Positions 46,345 to 63,822 of a stretch of 64,000 bases of DNA are shown here, piece by piece (the first letter of the stretch is position 1; every line of letters starts with the position of its first letter). Location: assembly GCA_009914755.4 (NCBI GenBank), contig CP086569.2, positions 27,168,001 to 27,232,000 on the forward strand, read 5' to 3'. The position numbers and the translations under genes are program-made. This stretch comes from the human T2T-CHM13v2.0 reference genome, Homo sapiens. The notes under the pieces are model-generated. The model worked only from the letters and a program-made list of their open reading frames with translations, had not been told where the DNA came from and did not search any database.

Positions 46345-49300
46345 GGCTAGAACCAAGACAGGCGCAAAGGTCAGGGCAGATCTAGGGCACAAGCAGGGCA
46401 GGCTAGGGCAGGGCAATGGCAAGACCAGGCCATGGCAGGGCCAGCCCAGGATAGAACAGGGTACAGGCAGGGCAGCACCAGGGCCACAGCTGGGGCAGGA
46501 CGAGGACCAGGACCGGGGTCCAGGCCAGGGCAAGGGTATGGCCAGGGCAGAGGTAGGGCCAGAGCCAGGGTGTGGGCAGGACCAAGGCAGGTCTATTGCA
46601 GGGCCAGGGTTCAGACCAGAGCCAGAGCAGGGCTGGGACAGGGCCAGGGCCAGGACCAGGAAAGGGCAATGTCAGGACAAGGGCCATGGCAGGACCAGCA
46701 ACGGGGCTAGGGCCAGGACAGGGACAGGGACAGGGACAGGGTCAGGGCTAGGGCCTGAATAGCATGCCAGGGTAGAGCCAGGCCACATTAGGGCCAGGAC
46801 AGGGTCAGGACAGGGCCATGGTAGGGCCAGGTTAAATCAGGGACAAGACACCTGCAAATCCACTTCAGGGCCAGGGTCAGGGCAGGGCCAGTTCAGGGCC
46901 AGGACCAAGACAGGTCCAGGGCCAGCGCTGTCGGGGTCATTGGCAGGGCCAGGGCCATGGCAGGAGCAGGGTCAGGAGCAGGGCTCAATGCCAGGCCAAT
47001 GCCACAGATAGGACCAGGTCTGTGCTAGGGCCAGTGTGAGGGCCAAGGTGGGGTCAGGGCAGGGCCAAAGGGAGGGCAGGGCCAAAGGGAGGGCAGGGCC
47101 AGGGCAGGGTGGAGCAGGCCCAGGGTAGCACAGGGTTAAGGTAGGACACAACCAACCAGGGCAGGTCTATGGCTGGGGCTGGGGCAGGGCCAGGGCTGGG
47201 GCAGGGCCAGAGCCAGGGCAGGGCCAAGACAGTGGCAGCTCCAGGGCAGGGCCAGGGTTAGGACCACGGACATGTCCAAGGCCAGTGCCAGGGCAAGGAC
47301 AAGGGCAGGGGCAGGGCCAGGTTCATCTAAGAACCAGGGACAAAGCCAGGCCCAGAGCAGGGCCAGGGCAGGTACCTGGCAGGGCTAGGGTCTGGGACAG
47401 GGCCATGGCAGGGCCAGGGCCACAACCAGGTCTGTGCTATGGCCAGGTCCAACACAGTGCCCAGGTAAGGCTAGGGTGAAGGCCAAGGTAGGGCCAGGGC
47501 AGGGTCAAAGCCAGGCTAGGGCCAAGGCAGGGCCAGGGCCGGCAAGGCAGGGCCAGGAAAGCATAGGGCCAAGGCAGGGCAGGGCCAGGCCAGTGCCAAG
47601 ACCTGGGCAGGGCCAGGGAACAGCCAGGGCAGGGCCAGGGCCAGAGCCAGGGCCAGGGCCTGGGCAGGACCAGGTTTGGGACAGGAGCAAAACAACGGCA
47701 AGGACAGTGCAGGATCTTGGCACAGCCAGGATCCAGGACAGTGTCAAGACAGGGCCAAGGCAGGGTCATGGCCATGGTAAGACCAGCAACAGGGCTGGTG
47801 CTAGGCCAGTGACAGGACCAGAGTCAGGGCAAGGACCAGAGCAGTGCAAGGCCAGGGTAGGGCCAGGCATTTCAGGGTCAGGGCCAGGGGAGAACCAGGG
47901 CAAGGTCTCAAGCAGGGAAGGGCCAGGACCAGGACAGGTCCAGGGCAGGGCCATGACAGGGCCAGGGGCTGTGTTAGGGCAAGGGCAGGGCCAGAGCAAG
48001 GTAAGGGTCAGGGCCAAGACCAGGGTAGGGACAGGGCAAGAAATATGGCAGGACCAGGGGCAATGCCAAGGCCAAGGCTGGGCCAGGGCTGAACCAGGGC
48101 TGAGTCAGGGCAGGGCAGGGCAGGACATGGTATGGCCAGTGCAGGACAGGACAAGAGCCGGTCCACAGAGAGAGCAGGGCTGATGCCAAGAAAGAGCCAG
48201 GCTAGTGCCAAGGCTGAGGCAGTGTCAGAGCATATCCGGGGAAGGGTCGGGGCCAGGGCCAGAACCGAGCCAGGGAACAGCCAAGGCAGGGTAGGGCAGG
48301 GAAATAGCATGGCTGGGTCAGTACTGGGACAGGGCAGAGCAGGGCAAGGCGATGGTAGGGGCAGGGCAGGGACAGGCCAATGCAGAGCCATGTTACACCA
48401 GGGCCAGGACACCTCCAAGTCCACTTCAGGGCCAGGGCTATGGCAGGACAAAGACCAGGGCCAGGGTCAGGGCCAGGTCTGTGCTAGGGCCAGCTCCAGA
48501 GCAGGGCCTAGTGAAGACTAGGGTGAGGGCCAAGGTAAGGCCAGGGCAGGGTCAAAGGCAGAGTAGGGCCAGGGCAGGGTGACGACACATCCAGAGCACA
48601 GCAGGCAGGGTGATGGCAAGACCAGGGGCAGACCACTGCCAGCTCAGGGCCAGGAAAAGGCCAGTGCAGAGCCAGGATAGGGTCTGGGTCTGGGTCAGGG
48701 CTAGGAACAAGGCAGAGCAGGGCCAGGGCCATGGCAGAGTCAGGGCAGGTCCTTGACAGGACCAGGTTCCAGGCCAGGGCCAGGGCAGCAGAAGGGGCAG
48801 GGCCTGGATAAGAGCACGGCCAGGGATATGGCAGGACCAGGGCTAGGGCCAGGGCCAGGCCATAGTGAGGGCAGGGCAAAAGCCCAGGTAGGGTCAGGGC
48901 AGGTCCAGGGAGTGACCAGCACCAAGAGGGGCCAAGGCACAACCAGCGCACGGTAAGGCAGAGCAATGGCACCACTGGGCCATGACAGGGCAAGGTCAGT
49001 GCCAGGAGAGGGCAGAACAGGCAGGCCCATGGTGGGGCCAGGCCAGGGATGGGCCAAAGCAGGTCCAGGACATGTCCAAGGCCAGGTCAGGGTCAGAACA
49101 GGAGCGGGACCATGACAATTGGCAGGGCCAGTGCCATGACAGGACCAGGGTCAGGACAAGGGGCAGGGCCAGAGCCAGGGCCAGAGTCAAGGTCAGGCCA
49201 GTGCAGGTTCAGGGAAGGGCCAGTGCCAGGGCAAGACCAGGGCAGGGACAGGGTAGCACAGGGCCAAGACAGGGTCAGGATGGGACCAGAGCAGGACGGG

Positions 49301-53045: not shown

Positions 53046-53600
53046 AAGGCAGACAGCGCAGGCGCCGACAGCGACAGCTCAGACAGCGCTGGCGCGGCGG
53101 ACAGGCGCACAGAAGACCTCAGGCTCAGGTTCCACTCCCCAGCTGTGAAAGGGTAAGAACTGAGGGTGGCTGAGGCTGGGGGTTGTTCAGGGCGGGGTGG
53201 GCTCTGGACCCAGCAGGCCCTGCACCCAGGCCAGGGCTTCAGGGGAGGCCAGGTAAGGCCAAGATGGGGCCGGGGCTGGTCAGAAAGATCCGAGCGTTGG
53301 GAGCCGGTGGAAGAAAAGAGCGCGCGGGCGACAGTCAAACAGGCCTTGGGGCAGGGCACGCCTCGCGCTCCAGGCAGCCCTGCCAGCCCAGGGCACCTGA
53401 GCAGCAACCGCCGCCTGCACTGGGCGCGCCAGAGAGCTGCTACGGTGGTTTCTCCCCCTCGGGCCTGTTGGGCGGGGCCGTTATGGTGCACGTGCTCGCT
53501 GGTCCTAATGGTTCTCTTGGGCGTTTCTGCTGAGAGGCGGGAGGCGCTGAGAGTCTGTGCGAAGGTCCGTGGACAGACTGCATTGCTTGTTGTGCTTCAG

Positions 53601-53848
<248 letters not shown>

Positions 53849-53859
53849 TAATGGGGGCC

Positions 53860-57902: not shown

Positions 57903-58076
<174 letters not shown>

Positions 58077-58227: not shown

Positions 58228-58437
<210 letters not shown>

Positions 58438-60284
58438 TGAAATGCATTTATTTTAACATTGACCCATGTAAGGGTCAATTTTTCATATTTGGAAACTCAA
58501 ACATTCCTTGAATGAAAATATTTTGAAATGCCTTAACTGTCAAAGATTTTACTTTAAATATTGGAACTTTTAAAGAAGCATTATAAGGTATGGCTTTTTT
58601 TCATGCACTTATGGTAAATAATTATAAAAACAAATGAGTTACAATAAATTTATAATTCATGACAACTGAATTTGGGAGGGGTAATAGTGAAGTGTTTTTC
58701 CACTAAATTACTTTTTTCTAATCAGTGTGAAGTGACACAGGAAAGTAAAATTGGCCCTTATAAATAGGCTTTATTTTAAATTTCAAAGAAAATTAAAGAA
58801 TTTCACAATAAATGTACATCTTGTTGCTGTTGACAAATATTGTATGTGAAGGTGATTTCATTTGAAAGTGATTCCTCTGTGGAAAGGCTTAAGGGGGAAA
58901 TATGAAGAAAAGGAGAGCAATCAGAAATGCACAAGCTAATTTGGAAATTAGGTAATGAGGGAAAATACTGTGGAGAGGGTTTTTGTGTGTTTTGTTGTTT
59001 GTTTTCAATTTATATGTTTAGACAAGGATCGTTTCAGTTTTGGGGATGATTATTCTTACTTTGGGAAAGAGTTTGTGAGTTGTAAAATTGCCCAGGGATC
59101 AATTTTGGTAGGACTCTGAGGAAACCAGGTTGGCAGTGAATAGTGGTGATGATGTGGCACACAGTTCAGCAGAGAGAAGAACACATAATTAATGGACATT
59201 ATTCAATTCTGGCAGAAAAAGCCACTTAGATAAGCATCTAAACTCTACTCTCAAGTCCAGAATGTCTTGATGGGCAGGTGGGAGATAAGGAGCTTATAAA
59301 TAGTAAAATCAAGTTGGATTTTGAGTTTACTGGTCTCTTTTCTACCCCTACCCAGGAAAAGTAAATGAAATTTTCAGTGAATGGCTCTATCTTTTGCTCT
59401 TTCCTCTTTTCGGCCAAATCCCAAATGATAAAGGGAATTTGCCACATGGGTGAGAGATGAGACTGAAGTGATTATCAACTGTGCTGGTTCGCAGTTAGAA
59501 TTGTGCATGGCAGTAACCTGGGGAAATTAAAAGCAAATCTCTTAAGTCTAGGATATCCCCTGAAGATTTTAATATAGTAAATCTAGTATTTACTATTAAA
59601 TATTACTGGACATGTATGTTTTAAAATATTTCCTTGAAGCTGGGCATGGTGGTGCCTCTAGCCAGAGCCACAGAATAAGACACTGTCTCTAACAACAACA
59701 ACAACACCAACAACAATAAACAATTTCTTGAGACACTGATACACTGCTGGTCAAGAACCACTGAATAGATAAGTGTAATATAAATTCCCATATCTCAAAC
59801 ACATAAAAAATCTCTAGAAGAGTTAGATGATAGGAGCTGCTTCCTTTGAATTTCTCCTTTCCAATAATAATGGCCTGACTTTTACCTGTCTCTACCTCTG
59901 TGGGTGGGAAGTTAAAAGAACTATTACTTGCAATATCTATCAGAGTAAGAATAACACCTTTTCTTTGCCACCATCACTTATGCACTGCCATTCATAGGGT
60001 CGTTAGAAATTTGCTATTGTGGACTCTTTTAATAAGTAGAGACTGACTCTTTCAGGACTCTGAGTCTCTTTGTTATCATTGTGGTGATTAGGTCAATACA
60101 TCATTATTAAAAGAAGGGTTCTCTCAATTACAAGAGTAAAAAATTCTAAACCTTTTTTTAAAGCTGAAGCTCTATTATGGACTGCCTCACTATGTCAGTT
60201 AAGTACACAGAACTATGGCATAATCAGGATAGCAGTTTTAAACACTTAAAACCATGAAGTTAGTAAGAATACAGAGAATACATT

Positions 60285-60395
60285 TAGGTCATTATTAGAG
60301 CTTTAATTGGTAAGCCATCGTATTTTTATTTCTGATTTATATTTTACCTAAAATAAAAAAATTAGGTTACAATATAGAAACTAGAATAATTTAAT
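60285..60395. repeat. ~110-bp segment, copy 1 of a local direct duplication (see 61601-61715)
   Basis: TAGGTCATTATTAGAGCTTTAATTGGTAAGCCATCGTATTTTTATTTCTGATTTATATTTTACCTAAAATAAAAAAATTAGG... matches 61601-61715 at about 90%. Confidence 0.65.
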
Positions 60396-61227
60396 ATTAT
60401 TTTAATAATTTAGTTGCAGCAGTCCTGTGAACTAATTATCCATTTGGTGAACAATCTGGGAAAATTAAACATAAATTATGAATTAATGAATGTTGTAAAA
60501 GTGCTCAAAGTGGGGATTATGACTCTTAGTAACAATTTTAATTGCATTCTTGAGGCTATTTTGGAAAATAAAATCTGAAACTAAAGAAAGGAAATATTTT
60601 ACACGAAAATACTTGTTTTATATAGAATCGCTTGGAGACATATCCACAGCAAATATAAAAATACAAGGTCTATAGTCTAAATGTGTCTCATAGATGTGTT
60701 TAGTTTGCCTCTATAAATTGTCTCACAATGGAAGGTTTAGGAGACTCGTGCACAGATCTGGATTCCAGGCTTCTCTTCAAGAATCCAATCTGGTGTCCCT
60801 TGAGCCTATCTCATGTTTAGGACGCTGTGCAGAGGTTGCCCCTTTCTATGAGGCATGTGGTCTACATTTTGCTACTGTACTTCACTTCCTCAGGTCATCT
60901 CCCTTGCCTCTGTAGGGATGACTTTACAAGCCCTGTTTTATAATATATTTTAGTAAATATTTCAAGGTTTTCAAGACATTTTATATTTATTTAAATATGG
61001 AGTCTATATTTTATATAAATCCCTTGGTAATTGGGTTGAACTTTTGAATTTAGATGGTGGTGTTTTATAAATTATTTTTCTTTATATATACCATAAATAG
61101 TCATCTTCCCATTAGAATGCATGGAAGCTTTTTAAGGTGAATCATGGTATAGTTGCATAGGTTACGCATATTGCAGACAACGTTATATTTTTCTCTTCAG
61201 CATTGCCTCCTAAAAATGCAAATAATT

Positions 61228-61576
<349 letters not shown>

Positions 61577-61600
61577 TCATTATTCTATAAATAATTCATA

Positions 61601-61715
61601 TAGGTCATTATTAGAGCTTTAATTGATAAGCCACTGTATTTTTATTTCTGATTTATATTTTACTTAAAATAAAAAAAGTAAGAATTCATATGGAAACTAG
61701 AATACAAATAAATTT
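61601..61715. repeat. ~110-bp segment, copy 2 of the local direct duplication
   Basis: TAGGTCATTATTAGAGCTTTAATTGATAAGCCACTGTATTTTTATTTCTGATTTATATTTTACTTAAAATAAAAAAAGTAAG... Confidence 0.65.
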
Positions 61716-61880
61716 TTAAAGGAGTTATATACCAGGGTCCTAAGATTATAATTACATAAATATTTGCATCAGGGTCCTAAGATTGTAATTGAGAATAATA
61801 TTTTATACAGAGCTTTCTGACAGCTAAGATAAAAATATTACTAGAGAAAACCCATGGACTATTTAATAATAAGCAGTGAA

Positions 61881-62029
61881 AGTTCATTTGAAGCCTATCT
61901 CTATTAATTCAGAGCCTGGCTCTTCAAATTAAAAAGAGAGAGGCTTCAAATGAACTGTCAATCGTGTCAGAATCTCAGATGACAATGTCAGGTGTGAGCA
62001 CCTGACATTGTCATCTGAGATTCTGACAC
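61881..62029. repeat. Nested inverted repeats: an outer 15-bp inverted repeat (AGTTCATTTGAAGCC ... GGCTTCAAATGAACT) followed by a perfect 31-bp inverted repeat with a 4-nt loop (61964-62029)
   Basis: GTGTCAGAATCTCAGATGACAATGTCAGGTG-TGAG-CACCTGACATTGTCATCTGAGATTCTGACAC. The arms are exact reverse complements, read directly from the sequence. Confidence 0.85.
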
Positions 62030-62745
62030 CATCAATAGAAGAGAATGAGGCACGTGTGTATCACCTTTACTGGCAAGCTCTCACAACTGTATCCCTGAAA
62101 CTCTCATTTCTTAAATGTTAACAGTCTCCAAAATAAGTATTTACAAATAGGGATTAGGTGAAGTTCAAAAGATTTCTCAAATACTAGACACATAATGCAC
62201 AGTTTTGTAACATTTTTCAAACATGGGTGATCATGAAGTCTTTCTTTTGGGGTATAATGTTGAACTTCTGGTAAAGTAAATATCCTTTGGAATATATTAA
62301 TAGTTTAAGAAACACCGCTCTATAGATAATAATTTAGATCATTTATAAAAATACCTGAAACATTTATTACTGTGTCTTAGAGTTTGAGGACATAGAGAAA
62401 AAAATACAGCTGCTGCCCTCAAGAAGCTCTTGGTTCAGGTGGGAAACAATAAAATCCTTGAAACATGCCATGGTAAATGCTGTGACAGAAGCAAAGATTC
62501 TTGGAACTGGGAAGTGTTTGAAGTGAGTTTTGGAGATGACCAGAGTTCTTGTGGTGAGGCAGAGGAGGTTGTTTCCAGCGGAAGGAGCAGAACGTAGAAA
62601 AGCACCGAGGAGTGAAAAGAAAGGGACTACCTCTTATGTCCTTTCAATTGTATATATTTAAGCTCACAGGATCTTACATAAGGTTTTCAGTTCAGTTGAT
62701 AAATACGTAATTATGTGATTATAAATTGTTGCTGTTGTTTTACAG

Positions 62746-62862
62746 ACTGAATGTCAACCACTTTTACTGGCTGTGCGTCTAAGAAAACTGATAATGGTGG
62801 AAGTTTTATTAAACAAAAATGCAAATATAAATGCAATTGATTGTCTTAGCAGATACAGACCT
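62746..62862 (+). CDS. Ankyrin-repeat exon 4 of the ANKRD36-family gene; 3' boundary undefined; the frame closes at TAG 62863-62865
   Basis: The acceptor is GTTGTTTTACAG|ACT. It encodes TECQPLLLAVRLRKLIMVEVLLNKNANINAIDCLSRYRP*, matching ANKRD36 (N/C)EYQPLL(L/F)[28 protein letters not shown]. No GT donor is found before the in-frame stop. Confidence 0.6.
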
Positions 62863-63329
62863 TAGTTCTTATTGTATTGTTTTTAAACCTGAGTGTCATT
62901 GTAGAGTGGTAGCAGTCACTCAAGTCACAAATATTACATTAATAAGAAGACTAACTTTTAATTATTGGGATATAGTGAGAAATATCAACACAGATCATCA
63001 CTTAGGTAGAAAAACAATTATTTGGACTGAGTAACATAAAGAACAGTGTATAGCAGGATTTGTCTCTCTATATAGACATTATACACATAAAAGGCTTCTA
63101 TATATAGAAAGCTCTGTATATTGATAGATGTTTGTTATTTGTAATATGATGTGTTATTTATAATGTAATAATGTGATGCTTTTGATTGTATGATTTTATG
63201 TTAGCGAAAGGGGTTTCATGTTAGTTTTTCATTTCTACTGTGTTTTGATGTTGTTTTTAATTGATATGGGGAGAGGGAGAAAAGATAGCTTTCAATGGAT
63301 AAAACTTTACTTTAATGAAAACAAGCTTT

Positions 63330-63475
63330 AGGTTCACACAGGACTGGATTTAATCCCTAGCTTTCCCACTTGCTAGATGTGTGACCTTGGTAACATTACT
63401 TATCACCAAGTATGTTTTCTTCTGTGAAAAGGAGGGTAATAATATATCCTTCAAGGATGGTTGTGTGTAAGTAAC

Positions 63476-63534: not shown

Positions 63535-63822
63535 TTAGAATGTCCAGCTAACAGAGCAAGGTGCTGATGTTTTGGAAACAATGGCTGAGCATATGCTTAT
63601 GTGCATATATATAATATATATATACACATATGTATGTAAGAATATAATGTAAGTAACATCATATATAGTATATAATATATACTATATATAGATAATATAT
63701 AATCTATAATGTATATTATATATTTTATAGATAACATATAATATACAATATATTATATATGTATGATGTTACTTAAGTTACTTATACACAACCACCCTTG
63801 AAGGATATATTATCCTCCATAT
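63432..63822. repeat. Palindromic AT-rich region: about 45-bp inverted arms (derived from the MIR 3' part) flanking (TA)26 and an AT-rich core
   Basis: Left arm GGAGGGTAATAATATATCCTTCAAGGATGGTTGTGTGTAAGTAACAT. Right arm ATGTTACTTAAGTTACTTATACACAACCACCCTTGAAGGATATATTATCCTCC, its reverse complement at about 90% identity. An additional inner copy TGTAAGTAACATCAT lies at 63645. Confidence 0.65.
63476..63530. repeat. (TA)26 dinucleotide microsatellite
   Basis: Uninterrupted ATATAT... of about 54 bp. Confidence 0.95.

What the first reader, a model, noticed from the sequence alone, without database searches (positions are those of the whole stretch)
61881..62029. Perfect 31-bp inverted repeat (66-bp hairpin, 4-nt loop) preceded by a second 15-bp-arm inverted repeat
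GTGTCAGAATCTCAGATGACAATGTCAGGTG-TGAG-CACCTGACATTGTCATCTGAGATTCTGACAC has zero mismatches across 31 bp arms. This is unusual for neutrally evolving intronic DNA, implying recent origin or selection. Immediately 5' is AGTTCATTTGAAGCC...(46 bp)...GGCTTCAAATGAACT. Such stacked palindromes are typical of non-autonomous DNA-transposon (hAT/MITE) termini. They can also form cruciforms, behave as RNA hairpins when transcribed, or act as deletion hotspots. It lies in intron 3 of the ankyrin gene, about 700 bp upstream of exon 4.
Basis: seen in the sequence. Interest (0 to 1): 0.55.

Follow-up and report, generated by a model that had tools for sequence, protein, structure and literature searches.

The report
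Twin intronic hairpins born by template switching
The two back-to-back palindromes in this primate ankyrin-gene intron are real, but they are not a transposon: they arose in an early monkey/ape ancestor when about 85-90 bases of the neighbouring sequence were copied backwards, and the centre of the second palindrome has been breaking and shrinking ever since.

Summary
There is a perfect 31-bp inverted repeat with a 4-nt loop at 61964-62029. An imperfect palindrome with arms of about 42 nt sits next to it at 61877-60. Both lie in intron 3 of an ANKRD36-family gene, 717 bp before exon 4.

The MITE/hAT reading and the "recent origin or selection" reading are not supported. I recovered 15 homologous copies: orangutan x2, two gibbons, colobus, macaque, two New World monkeys, five probably human paralogs from metagenome contigs, a lemur and a cat.
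- Lemur and cat carry only the left arm of P1 (A) and the right arm of P2 (B), as A-j-s-B, and that segment has no unusual fold.
- All anthropoids carry A-j-A'-B'-s'-B. The extra ~89 nt is the reverse complement of the flanks, and the spacer is inverted.
- This is the signature of replication or repair template switching, dated to the anthropoid stem.

There is no target-site duplication, no foreign DNA and no dispersed copy. The arms do not covary and evolve at about the neutral rate. The window's perfection is the lucky tail of that process: both arms lost a CpG in a complementary way. One unproven arm-to-arm correction could also explain it.

The P2 centre is an indel and breakpoint hotspot. 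It is a good example of a known kind of mutation.

The parts
61877..61916 (+). A: left arm of palindrome P1. This is ancestral sequence, present in lemur and cat.
   Evidence: Aligns to lemur L024 and cat L025 in forward orientation. Pairs with 61926-61960.
61917..61925 (+). j: loop and centre of P1 (TGGCTCTTC). It is an ancestral remnant in forward orientation (cat CATCTCC, colobus CAGCTCTCC).
   Evidence: Forward match to the outgroups directly after A.
61926..61960 (+). A': right arm of P1. It is a derived reverse-complement copy of A and is absent from lemur and cat.
   Evidence: Missing in L024 and L025. It matches the reverse complement of outgroup A.
61961..61994 (+). B': left arm of P2 (perfect part 61964-61994). 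It is a derived reverse-complement copy of B plus its right flank and is absent from lemur and cat. It joins A' through a TCA microhomology.
   Evidence: Missing in L024 and L025. The reverse complement of the outgroup s+B aligns here. Arms.
61995..61998 (+). Loop TGAG of P2. It is what remained after a 20-nt central deletion shared with orangutan L001 (CGAG there). That deletion removed the inverted 14-nt spacer s' and the innermost arm bases.
   Evidence: Colobus keeps ...GCTCCTG-TTCCAAATGGGT-CAGGAGC...; the window and L001 have GGTG[T/C]GAGCACC.
61999..62032 (+). B: right arm of P2 (perfect part 61999-62029). This is ancestral sequence, present in lemur and cat.
   Evidence: Forward alignment of lemur CAGGAGTGCCTGCTGTTGGCACCTGGGTTCCTCACACCAT and of the cat equivalent.
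58405..62746 (+). Host intron 3 of the ANKRD36-family gene or pseudogene. The hairpins would be transcribed as part of it.
   Evidence: Exon mapping by tblastn and homology search.

Best explanation
P1 and P2 are a pair of hairpin-forming inverted repeats created de novo by template switching. The nascent DNA strand briefly copied the opposite or its own strand, during replication or break repair, in the common ancestor of monkeys and apes.

Origin. The ancestral intron read A-j-s-B and had no unusual structure. At the j|s junction about 85-90 nt were added: a reverse-complement copy of A (A'), directly followed by a reverse-complement copy of s+B (B'-s'). The result is A-j-A' (P1) and B'-s'-B (P2, originally ~44-nt arms around an inverted 14-nt spacer).

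Fit to the published model. P1 matches the '3-2-1-4' event type and P2 the '1-3-4-2' type (inverted repeat with inverted spacer) of the four-point template-switch model. Because both start at the same junction, I infer either one serial three-switch event or two events, with the second triggered at the first hairpin.

Later history.
- P1 is interrupted by bulges and has been stable.
- The centre of P2 has been repeatedly deleted, duplicated or broken in different lineages.
- In the lineage of this window and its orangutan counterpart, a 20-nt central deletion left 31/32-bp arms and a 4/2-nt loop.

Why the arms are perfect here. No unpaired substitution happened to occur, and the one CpG in each arm decayed in the complementary direction (C>T on the left, G>A on the right).

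Function. The element has no demonstrated function. Its expected behaviour is that of a short cruciform or hairpin-prone palindrome, that is, a local fragile or indel site, and of a 31-bp dsRNA stem inside the pre-mRNA intron.

Shown: the derived status of A' and B', the reverse-complement origin, the spacer inversion, the age bracket, the central instability and the lack of covariation. Inferred: the enzymology (replicative switch versus repair synthesis), one event versus two, and the reason for perfection.
For: 1. Polarity. Lemur L024 and cat L025 are collinear with the window's intron 3 (about 70% and 67% identity). Both contain only A + j + s + B. Their segment folds no better than shuffles (z = 0.0 and -1.2), against -8.9 to -12.8 for the anthropoid copies.

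2. Templated origin. The 89-nt extra segment of the most complete copy (colobus) aligns to rc(A)+rc(s+B) built from the cat alone at 69/89 matches and from the lemur alone at 68/89. Forward controls give 52-53.

3. Spacer inversion. Colobus TCCAAATGGGTCA is a 13/13 match to the reverse complement of the cat spacer TGACCCATTTGGA. In forward orientation the match is 8/13.

4. Age. Both palindromes are present in Aotus and Plecturocebus, in colobus and macaque, in gibbons, in orangutan and in the window. Flank distances from the window are 3.4% to orangutan L001, 6.2% to colobus and 9.6-9.9% to New World monkeys.

5. Known mechanism. The four-point model lists an event type that creates an inverted repeat and one that creates an inverted repeat with an inverted spacer (PMC5453318). 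Template switching creates perfect hairpins in one step in primates (PMC10710096) and can also correct existing stems (PMC8794818).

6. Central instability. Six of 32 distinct gap classes fall in about 40 columns at the P2 centre of a 1,211-column alignment, where about 0.9 would be expected. In addition, homology in macaque ends at the centre and is followed by an L1 fragment.

7. No constraint. The covariation test on the 31 pairs was not significant: 2 pairs changed on both sides (174/500 shuffles reach this), and 10 pairs are simply broken in some copies. Parsimony changes per column are 0.58-0.61 in the arms against 0.27-0.29 in the flanks.

8. The window differs from orangutan L001 in the arms only by the complementary CpG pair AATGTC/GACATT versus AACGTC/GACGTT.
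Against: - A single four-point event cannot produce the observed order A-A'-B'-B; the 3-1-4-2 type would give A-B'-Y'-A'-B. The model therefore needs two events at one junction or a three-switch event, and I could not tell these apart.
- No tarsier or further outgroup was available, so the event is only bracketed between the strepsirrhine split and the platyrrhine split.
- A neutral simulation gives only 0.7% (since the anthropoid ancestor) to 2.5% (since the catarrhine ancestor) probability that 31-bp arms stay perfect. Pure luck is therefore somewhat strained, and an unseen arm-to-arm correction may have occurred.
- Orthology versus paralogy of the compared copies is not fully resolved. The paralogs are mosaics: L008 combines two types.
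- RepeatMasker/Dfam could not be run.
Confidence: 0.85

Rival explanations
1. Non-autonomous DNA transposon (hAT/MITE) whose terminal or subterminal inverted repeats are the palindromes.
For: Only the stacked, almost fully palindromic ~70-85-bp units, which superficially resemble MITEs.
Against: - The outgroups keep one arm of each palindrome instead of showing an empty site, and the added DNA is the reverse complement of local flanks.
- There is no target-site duplication. The 5-nt TCAAT repeat in the window is a window-specific CpG decay and is not present in other copies.
- No second copy exists in the 64-kb window or in the fetched loci.
- A 20-mer scan of 241 million metagenome records found only the five ANKRD36-intron copies plus ten 20-22-nt chance matches.
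Confidence: 0.02
2. The double palindrome is ancestral in placental mammals, and lemur and cat each lost the inner arms (A'...B') by a deletion running from the centre of one hairpin to the centre of the other.
For: Hairpin tips are known break sites. The centre of P2 is demonstrably unstable in primates.
Against: - It needs two independent deletions, in lemur and in cat, with the same end points and homologous junction sequence (j + s). It also needs the spacer to be in the opposite orientation in both.
- Both palindromes were nearly perfect in the reconstructed anthropoid ancestor, which is not expected after more than 90 My of independent arm decay.
Confidence: 0.04
3. P2, or P1+P2, is a functional RNA hairpin, such as an intronic miRNA/endo-siRNA precursor or an ADAR substrate, and its perfect pairing is kept by selection.
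For: - It is transcribed in sense with the host intron and is an extremely stable 31-bp stem.
- There is one compensatory pair between the window and orangutan.
- Template-switch hairpins are a documented source of primate miRNAs (PMC10710096).
Against: - No Rfam family reaches its gathering score; there are only generic hairpin hits such as mir-1756 at 41.8 bits against a threshold of 100.
- No paper in the library contains the arm sequences.
- A 4-nt loop and a 31-bp stem do not fit the ~35-bp stem with an apical loop of at least 10 nt preferred for pri-miRNAs (as cited in PMC10710096).
- Covariation is not significant and 10 of 31 pairs are broken in some copies.
- The hairpin is half-deleted in gibbons and New World monkeys and interrupted in macaque.
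Confidence: 0.05
4. This concerns only why the arms are perfect. One or more later template-switch or arm-to-arm conversion events 're-copied' one arm from the other in the hominid lineage, possibly in the same event that removed the spacer. On this view the perfection is not chance retention.
For: - The neutral probability of perfect arms is only 0.7-2.5% over the element's age but 11% since the window/orangutan split.
- The window and L001 both have perfect arms and share the central deletion.
- Paired changes occur at two arm positions (13-14 and 23-24) between lineages.
- The mechanism is documented (PMC5453318, PMC8794818).
Against: - Both paired changes sit at CpG sites, where two independent decays are complementary half of the time.
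- The window and L001 share no derived non-CpG change present in both arms, which would be the positive footprint of a reset.
- Other paralogs carry the 2-5 arm mismatches expected under neutrality.
Confidence: 0.3

Closest known systems
Template-switch mutations (TSMs) of the four-point model: type 3-2-1-4/1-4-3-2 (new inverted repeat) and type 1-3-4-2/3-1-2-4 (inverted repeat with inverted spacer). Löytynoja & Goldman 2017, PMC5453318.
   Same: - The derived segment is the reverse complement of directly adjacent ancestral sequence.
- It creates a perfect hairpin in one step.
- The spacer of P2 is inverted relative to the outgroups.
- The ancestral sequence had no structure.
   Different: - Two such copies (A' and B's') sit back to back at a single junction. 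One switch-and-return event cannot generate this.
- The copied tracts (~45 and ~58 nt) are at the long end of what that study examined.
TSM-born primate miRNA hairpins, e.g. hsa-mir-4713. Mönttinen et al. 2023, PMC10710096.
   Same: - De novo inverted repeat in a transcribed (intronic) region, dated to a primate ancestor.
- Later remodelling of the loop.
   Different: - There is no evidence that this hairpin is processed.
- The loop is only 4 nt in the window.
- There is no Rfam or literature match.
- Pairing is not conserved among paralogs.
Quasipalindrome correction (Ripley-type templated mutation), as summarised in PMC5453318 and PMC8794818.
   Same: It would explain complementary changes in both arms without selection.
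   Different: It is not demonstrated here. The only paired changes are at CpG sites and are compatible with two independent decays.
Unstable genomic DNA palindromes and cruciform-forming inverted repeats (non-B DNA; PMC4057610 and PMC12887540, abstracts seen).
   Same: - Closely spaced inverted repeat with a very short spacer.
- Recurrent central deletions and breakpoints in evolution.
   Different: It is much shorter (31-44-bp arms, not AT-rich) than the palindromic AT-rich repeats associated with recurrent translocations. The instability is inferred from species comparison, not observed directly.
MITEs / non-autonomous hAT elements
   Same: Short, almost fully palindromic units.
   Different: There is no target-site duplication, no dispersed family and no foreign sequence, and the outgroups retain half of each 'element'.

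Membership tests
Template-switch mutation (four-point model) | The derived sequence contains a tract that is the reverse complement of nearby ancestral sequence. | tested here: met
   rc(A)+rc(s+B) predicted from cat or lemur matches the 89-nt extra segment at 69/89 and 68/89. Forward controls give 52-53.
Template-switch mutation (four-point model) | The ancestral (outgroup) state lacks the inverted repeat. | tested here: met
   Lemur and cat have A-j-s-B only. Their fold z-scores are 0.0 and -1.2, against -8.9 to -12.8 for anthropoid copies.
Template-switch mutation (four-point model) | For type 1-3-4-2: the spacer between the arms is inverted. | tested here: met
   The colobus spacer matches the reverse complement of the cat spacer 13/13, against 8/13 in forward orientation.
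Template-switch mutation (four-point model) | The whole change is explained by a single switch-and-return event. | tested here: not met
   The observed order A-A'-B'-B differs from the one-event 3-1-4-2 product A-B'-Y'-A'-B (reasoned from PMC5453318). It needs two events or three switches.
MITE / non-autonomous hAT transposon | The element is bounded by terminal inverted repeats and flanked by a target-site duplication. | tested here: not met
   No direct repeat flanks P1, P2 or P1+P2 in the family consensus.
MITE / non-autonomous hAT transposon | An empty site, with the whole element precisely absent, in species that predate the insertion. | tested here: not met
   The outgroups retain one arm of each palindrome.
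MITE / non-autonomous hAT transposon | Many dispersed copies in the genome. | tested here: inconclusive
   None in the window or the loci. The metagenome scan returned only the ANKRD36-intron copies. No primate genome-wide search was possible.
MITE / non-autonomous hAT transposon | Match to a curated repeat consensus (Dfam/Repbase). | not testable with these tools
   No repeat library is available.
miRNA precursor | Match to a curated miRNA family. | tested here: not met
   The best hits are far below the gathering scores: 41.8 vs 100 and 41 vs 84. miRBase itself is not available.
miRNA precursor | Stem of about 35 bp with an unstructured apical loop of at least 10 nt. | tested here: not met
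   The stem is 31 bp and the loop 4 nt. The criterion is as quoted in PMC10710096.
miRNA precursor | Base pairing conserved through compensatory change. | tested here: not met
   the covariation score is reached by 28/500 shuffles, pairs with double change by 174/500, and 10 pairs are broken.
miRNA precursor | Small RNA reads with defined ends. | not testable with these tools
   No expression data.
Unstable DNA palindrome (cruciform/hairpin-prone) | Near-perfect inverted repeat with a short spacer and excess structural change at the centre. | tested here: met
   The arms are 31/31 with a 4-nt spacer. Six of 32 indel classes lie in about 40 central columns, and gibbons carry a deletion and macaque a breakpoint there.
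Unstable DNA palindrome (cruciform/hairpin-prone) | Direct demonstration of extrusion or breakage. | not testable with these tools
   This needs an experiment or population long-read data.

The most novel reading that the evidence does not exclude
Both hairpins were made in one serial, three-switch template-switching episode at a single stalled fork or break: forward A-j, back along A, jump and back along s+B, then return. This would be a small-scale FoSTeS/MMBIR-like event that the standard four-point model does not cover. In the hominid lineage, P2 has since been kept perfect by hairpin-templated correction. Its centre serves as a recurrent breakpoint that shapes the ANKRD36 segmental-duplication family, as seen in the macaque copy boundary, the gibbon 264-bp deletion and the mosaic paralog.
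Probability: 0.25. Interest if true: 0.45.

Novelty: new member of a known kind. Interest (0 to 1): 0.3.

Why it matters
This locus is a clean worked example of three things:
- how a long, perfect hairpin can appear in a primate intron in one mutational step from unstructured sequence;
- why such a structure should not be read as a transposon or as evidence of selection;
- what happens to it afterwards, namely spacer loss, central deletions, breakpoints and CpG decay that can mimic compensatory evolution.

It is also a caution for annotation. "Perfect palindrome" does not mean "young" or "functional". Here the arms are older than the monkey-ape split, and neutrally evolving paralogs show the expected decay.

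If the two hairpins arose in one event, the locus documents a multi-switch class of short-range template switching that current detection models exclude.

Tried and rejected
- Rfam scan of 61000-63000 at E<=10. It returned only sub-threshold generic hairpin hits plus Alu/SRP matches.
- Full-text search for six arm-derived 17-18-mers, as RNA and DNA: 0 papers.
- Scan of bacterial and archaeal genome contigs for a P1 21-mer: 0 hits. This is uninformative, because even the known copies are not in that collection.
- Look-ups of the human ANKRD36C-like protein P0010 and of Pongo P0008: not on record. No confirmed human copy was therefore obtained; the five metagenome contigs are only presumed to be human.
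- The idea that the P2 arms are under purifying selection. It was prompted by the Aotus left arm being identical to the window's, and was rejected after the tree-wide parsimony count (arms 0.58-0.61 changes per column against 0.27-0.29 in the flanks). That count is itself inflated by mosaic paralogs; a hand count gives roughly the neutral rate.
- The idea that New World monkeys show the pre-palindrome state of P2. It was rejected once lemur and cat showed that the right arm B is ancestral. The 21 nt missing in New World monkeys is a deletion between GAG repeats.
- A double 'snap-back' repair model at one double-strand break. It predicts the spacer in its original orientation, which is not observed for P2, so it is disfavoured but not excluded for P1.
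- A single four-point 3-1-4-2 event. It gives the wrong block order.
- MAFFT alignment A4 misplaces the lemur and cat B segment, so I used anchored local alignments instead.
- Tandem Repeats Finder at score >=200 on 45.8-50 kb found nothing; at score >=50 it shows a degenerate array.

Full report
OBSERVATION

P2 has 31-nt arms at 61964-61994 and 61999-62029 with no mismatch, around the loop TGAG. The repeat finder extends the arms to 34 nt at 97%.

P1 is larger than reported. The quoted 15-nt arms are the core of an imperfect palindrome at 61877-61960, with 29-nt arms at 90%. It folds almost end to end around AGAGCC-T-GGCTCT.

The 171-nt region folds to -99.2 kcal/mol on the + strand (z = -14.5) and -103.2 kcal/mol on the - strand (z = -16.4) as RNA. 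As DNA, P2 gives z = -12.8 and P1 gives z = -9.7. No shuffle reached these values.

CONTEXT

The window is primate DNA; it is rich in Alu elements, which show up as SRP-like Rfam hits. tblastn and a protein search place an ANKRD36-family gene on the + strand, with exons at about 53726-53848, 57945-58067, 58228-58404 and 62747-62853. The best protein hits are 'ANKRD36B-like' proteins of gibbons and orangutan at 81-90% identity.

The palindromes lie in intron 3, 717 bp upstream of exon 4, as stated. The copy looks like a pseudogene: the exon 1 frame has an upstream stop and no ATG, and there is no GT where exon 4 homology ends.

COMPARATIVE DATA

I fetched genomic loci through the protein hits:
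- orangutan L001 and L004;
- siamang L002 and Nomascus L005;
- red colobus L003 and macaque L006;
- Aotus L022 and Plecturocebus L023;
- Lemur catta L024 and leopard cat L025.

A 20-mer scan of metagenome contigs gave five more copies (L007, L008, L010, L020, L021). These are host contamination and probably human paralogs. The other ten hits match only 20-22 nt, which is the number expected by chance.

Substitution-only distances of the flanks from the window are 3.4% (L001), 3.9% (L004), 2.5-3.7% (metagenome copies), 6.2% (colobus) and 9.6-9.9% (New World monkeys). The window therefore behaves like a hominine sequence. L001 shares its exact P2 centre, so it is the likely orangutan ortholog.

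ORIGIN

All anthropoid copies carry P1 and at least the outer parts of P2. Lemur and cat are collinear with the intron (about 70% and 67% identity). However, they contain only four blocks, in this order:
- the left arm of P1 (A);
- a short stretch j (cat CATCTCCTTGG);
- a 14-nt stretch s (cat TGACCCATTTGGAG);
- the right arm of P2 (B).

This is shown. Two independent outgroups share this junction, so A-j-s-B is ancestral. It folds no better than shuffled sequence (z = 0.0 and -1.2).

Anthropoids read A-j-A'-B'-s'-B. The 89-nt extra tract of the most complete copy (colobus) matches rc(A)+rc(s+B) built from the cat alone at 69/89 and from the lemur alone at 68/89. Forward controls give 52-53. 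The colobus spacer TCCAAATGGGTCA is a 13/13 match to the reverse complement of the cat spacer, against 8/13 in forward orientation.

The added DNA is therefore wholly templated from the flanks in reverse complement, with the spacer inverted. A' and B' are joined at a TCA microhomology (...GAACTGTCA|ATCGTGTCAG...).

This is the signature of template-switch mutation. In the four-point model, P1 corresponds to the type that creates an inverted repeat (3-2-1-4). [quoted passage not shown] Such events are known to create perfect hairpins in primates in one step (PMC10710096).

A single 3-1-4-2 event would give the block order A-B'-Y'-A'-B, which is not what is seen. So there were either two events at the same junction or one serial three-switch event. 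I could not distinguish these. The event is bracketed between the strepsirrhine split and the platyrrhine-catarrhine split.

This excludes the MITE/hAT reading for four reasons:
- there is no empty site in the outgroups;
- there is no foreign sequence;
- there is no target-site duplication (the window's TCAAT...TCAAT is a window-specific CpG decay);
- there are no other copies.

LATER HISTORY

P1 differs among copies only by substitutions and one 4-bp deletion. The centre of P2 differs in almost every lineage:
- Colobus keeps ~37-nt arms, the 12-14-nt spacer and 5 arm mismatches.
- New World monkeys lost the spacer and 21 nt of the ancestral right arm, between GAG repeats.
- Gibbons share a 264-bp deletion that starts 6 nt into the right arm (window 62005-62267).
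- In macaque, homology stops at the centre and an L1 fragment followed by unrelated sequence comes next.
- Orangutan L004 has an asymmetric 9-nt loss.
- L020, L007 and L008 duplicate CAGGTGCT.
- L021 and L010 have a 2-nt loop and four clustered substitutions in the left arm.
- L008 is a mosaic of two paralog types that switches at the palindrome.
- The window and L001 share a 20-nt central deletion, GGTGC[TCCTGTTCCAAATGGGTCAG]GAGCACC. It leaves 31/32-bp arms and a 4/2-nt loop.

Six of the 32 distinct gap classes in the 1,211-column alignment fall in about 40 central columns, where about 0.9 would be expected.

WHY THE ARMS ARE PERFECT

The window and L001 both have perfect arms. They differ only by AATGTC/GACATT (window) versus AACGTC/GACGTT (L001), and by TGAG versus CGAG in the loop. 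Several other paralogs retain the CpG, so the window lost it on both arms: C>T on the left and G>A on the right. Two independent CpG decays are complementary half of the time.

Across 12 copies the covariation test is not significant. Two pairs show double change (174/500 shuffles reach this), the covariation score is reached by 28/500 shuffles, and 10 pairs are simply broken in some copies. Parsimony counts show the arms change at least as fast as the flanks, and my hand count gives roughly the neutral number. Other complete copies carry 2-5 arm mismatches.

A neutral simulation with a 10-fold CpG rate gives these probabilities for perfect 31-bp arms:
- 0.11 since the window/orangutan split;
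- 0.025 since the catarrhine ancestor;
- 0.007 since the anthropoid ancestor.

The lower tail is therefore plausible. A later arm-to-arm correction by template switching (PMC8794818), perhaps the same event that removed the spacer, is a reasonable alternative. I rate it at about 0.3. It has no positive footprint here.

FUNCTION

No Rfam family reaches its threshold and no paper in the library contains the arm sequences. The 4-nt loop and 31-bp stem do not fit pri-miRNA preferences (PMC10710096). The hairpin is disrupted in many lineages.

I conclude that the element is a non-functional by-product of template switching. It now behaves as a short hairpin- or cruciform-prone palindrome at the DNA level and as a 31-bp dsRNA stem within the intron at the RNA level. 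A role as a small-RNA source or editing substrate is not excluded, but nothing supports it.

VERDICT

The transposon, recent-origin and selection interpretations are not supported; the instability remark is supported. The element is a new, well-resolved member of a known kind, the template-switch-born hairpin. Its one slightly unusual feature is that two hairpins were born at one junction. Interest is moderate to low (0.3).

Noticed in passing
window 60277-60388 and 61593-61704: A 112-bp direct repeat (87.5% identity) flanks a ~1.2-kb segment that contains an Alu. The segment is absent from orangutan L004 and siamang L002 but present in L001, Nomascus, colobus and macaque. This suggests recurrent deletion between the repeats, or an old duplication, just upstream of the palindromes.
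   Followed up: partly
window 63439-63475 / 63777-63813 (intron after exon 4): A second inverted repeat with 37-nt arms at 95% complementarity, separated by 301 nt of (TA)n-rich, itself palindromic AT-rich sequence. It could be another template-switch product or an AT-rich fragile palindrome.
   Followed up: no
window about 46490-49270: A degenerate G-rich array of GGGCCA/CAGGGC-like units with periods of 6, 11, 17 and 23. GC is 0.64-0.66 and GC skew is strong at +0.26. Long stop-free frames run on both strands. It lies upstream of the CpG-rich region (52-54 kb) that holds exon 1.
   Followed up: partly
window 53560-53850 and 62840-62860: The ANKRD36-like gene copy looks non-functional. The exon 1 reading frame is preceded by a stop with no in-frame ATG ([14 protein letters not shown]...). 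Exon 4 homology ends at ...CTTAGCAG|ATACAG, without a GT donor, and a stop follows 4 codons later. No identical protein exists in the 5.8-billion-protein collection; the best hit is 90% identical.
   Followed up: partly
window 62061|62062: A window-specific 17-bp deletion (CACCCAGAGGAAACCTC, present in all other anthropoid copies) lies between CACC direct repeats, about 30 nt downstream of P2.
   Followed up: no
L006 14100-16250 (macaque): Homology to all other copies ends at the centre of P2. An old 5'-truncated L1 ORF2 fragment with a poly-A tail follows, and then unrelated sequence. This is either a copy boundary or a rearrangement breakpoint at the palindrome.
   Followed up: partly
L008, L010, L021, L020, L007 (metagenome contigs): Five host-derived contigs in metagenome assemblies carry ANKRD36-family intron copies that are 1-2% apart from each other. 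L008 combines the left half of the L020/L007 type with the right half of the L010/L021 type, with the exchange at P2. L010 and L021 have four substitutions clustered within 14 nt of the left arm.
   Followed up: partly
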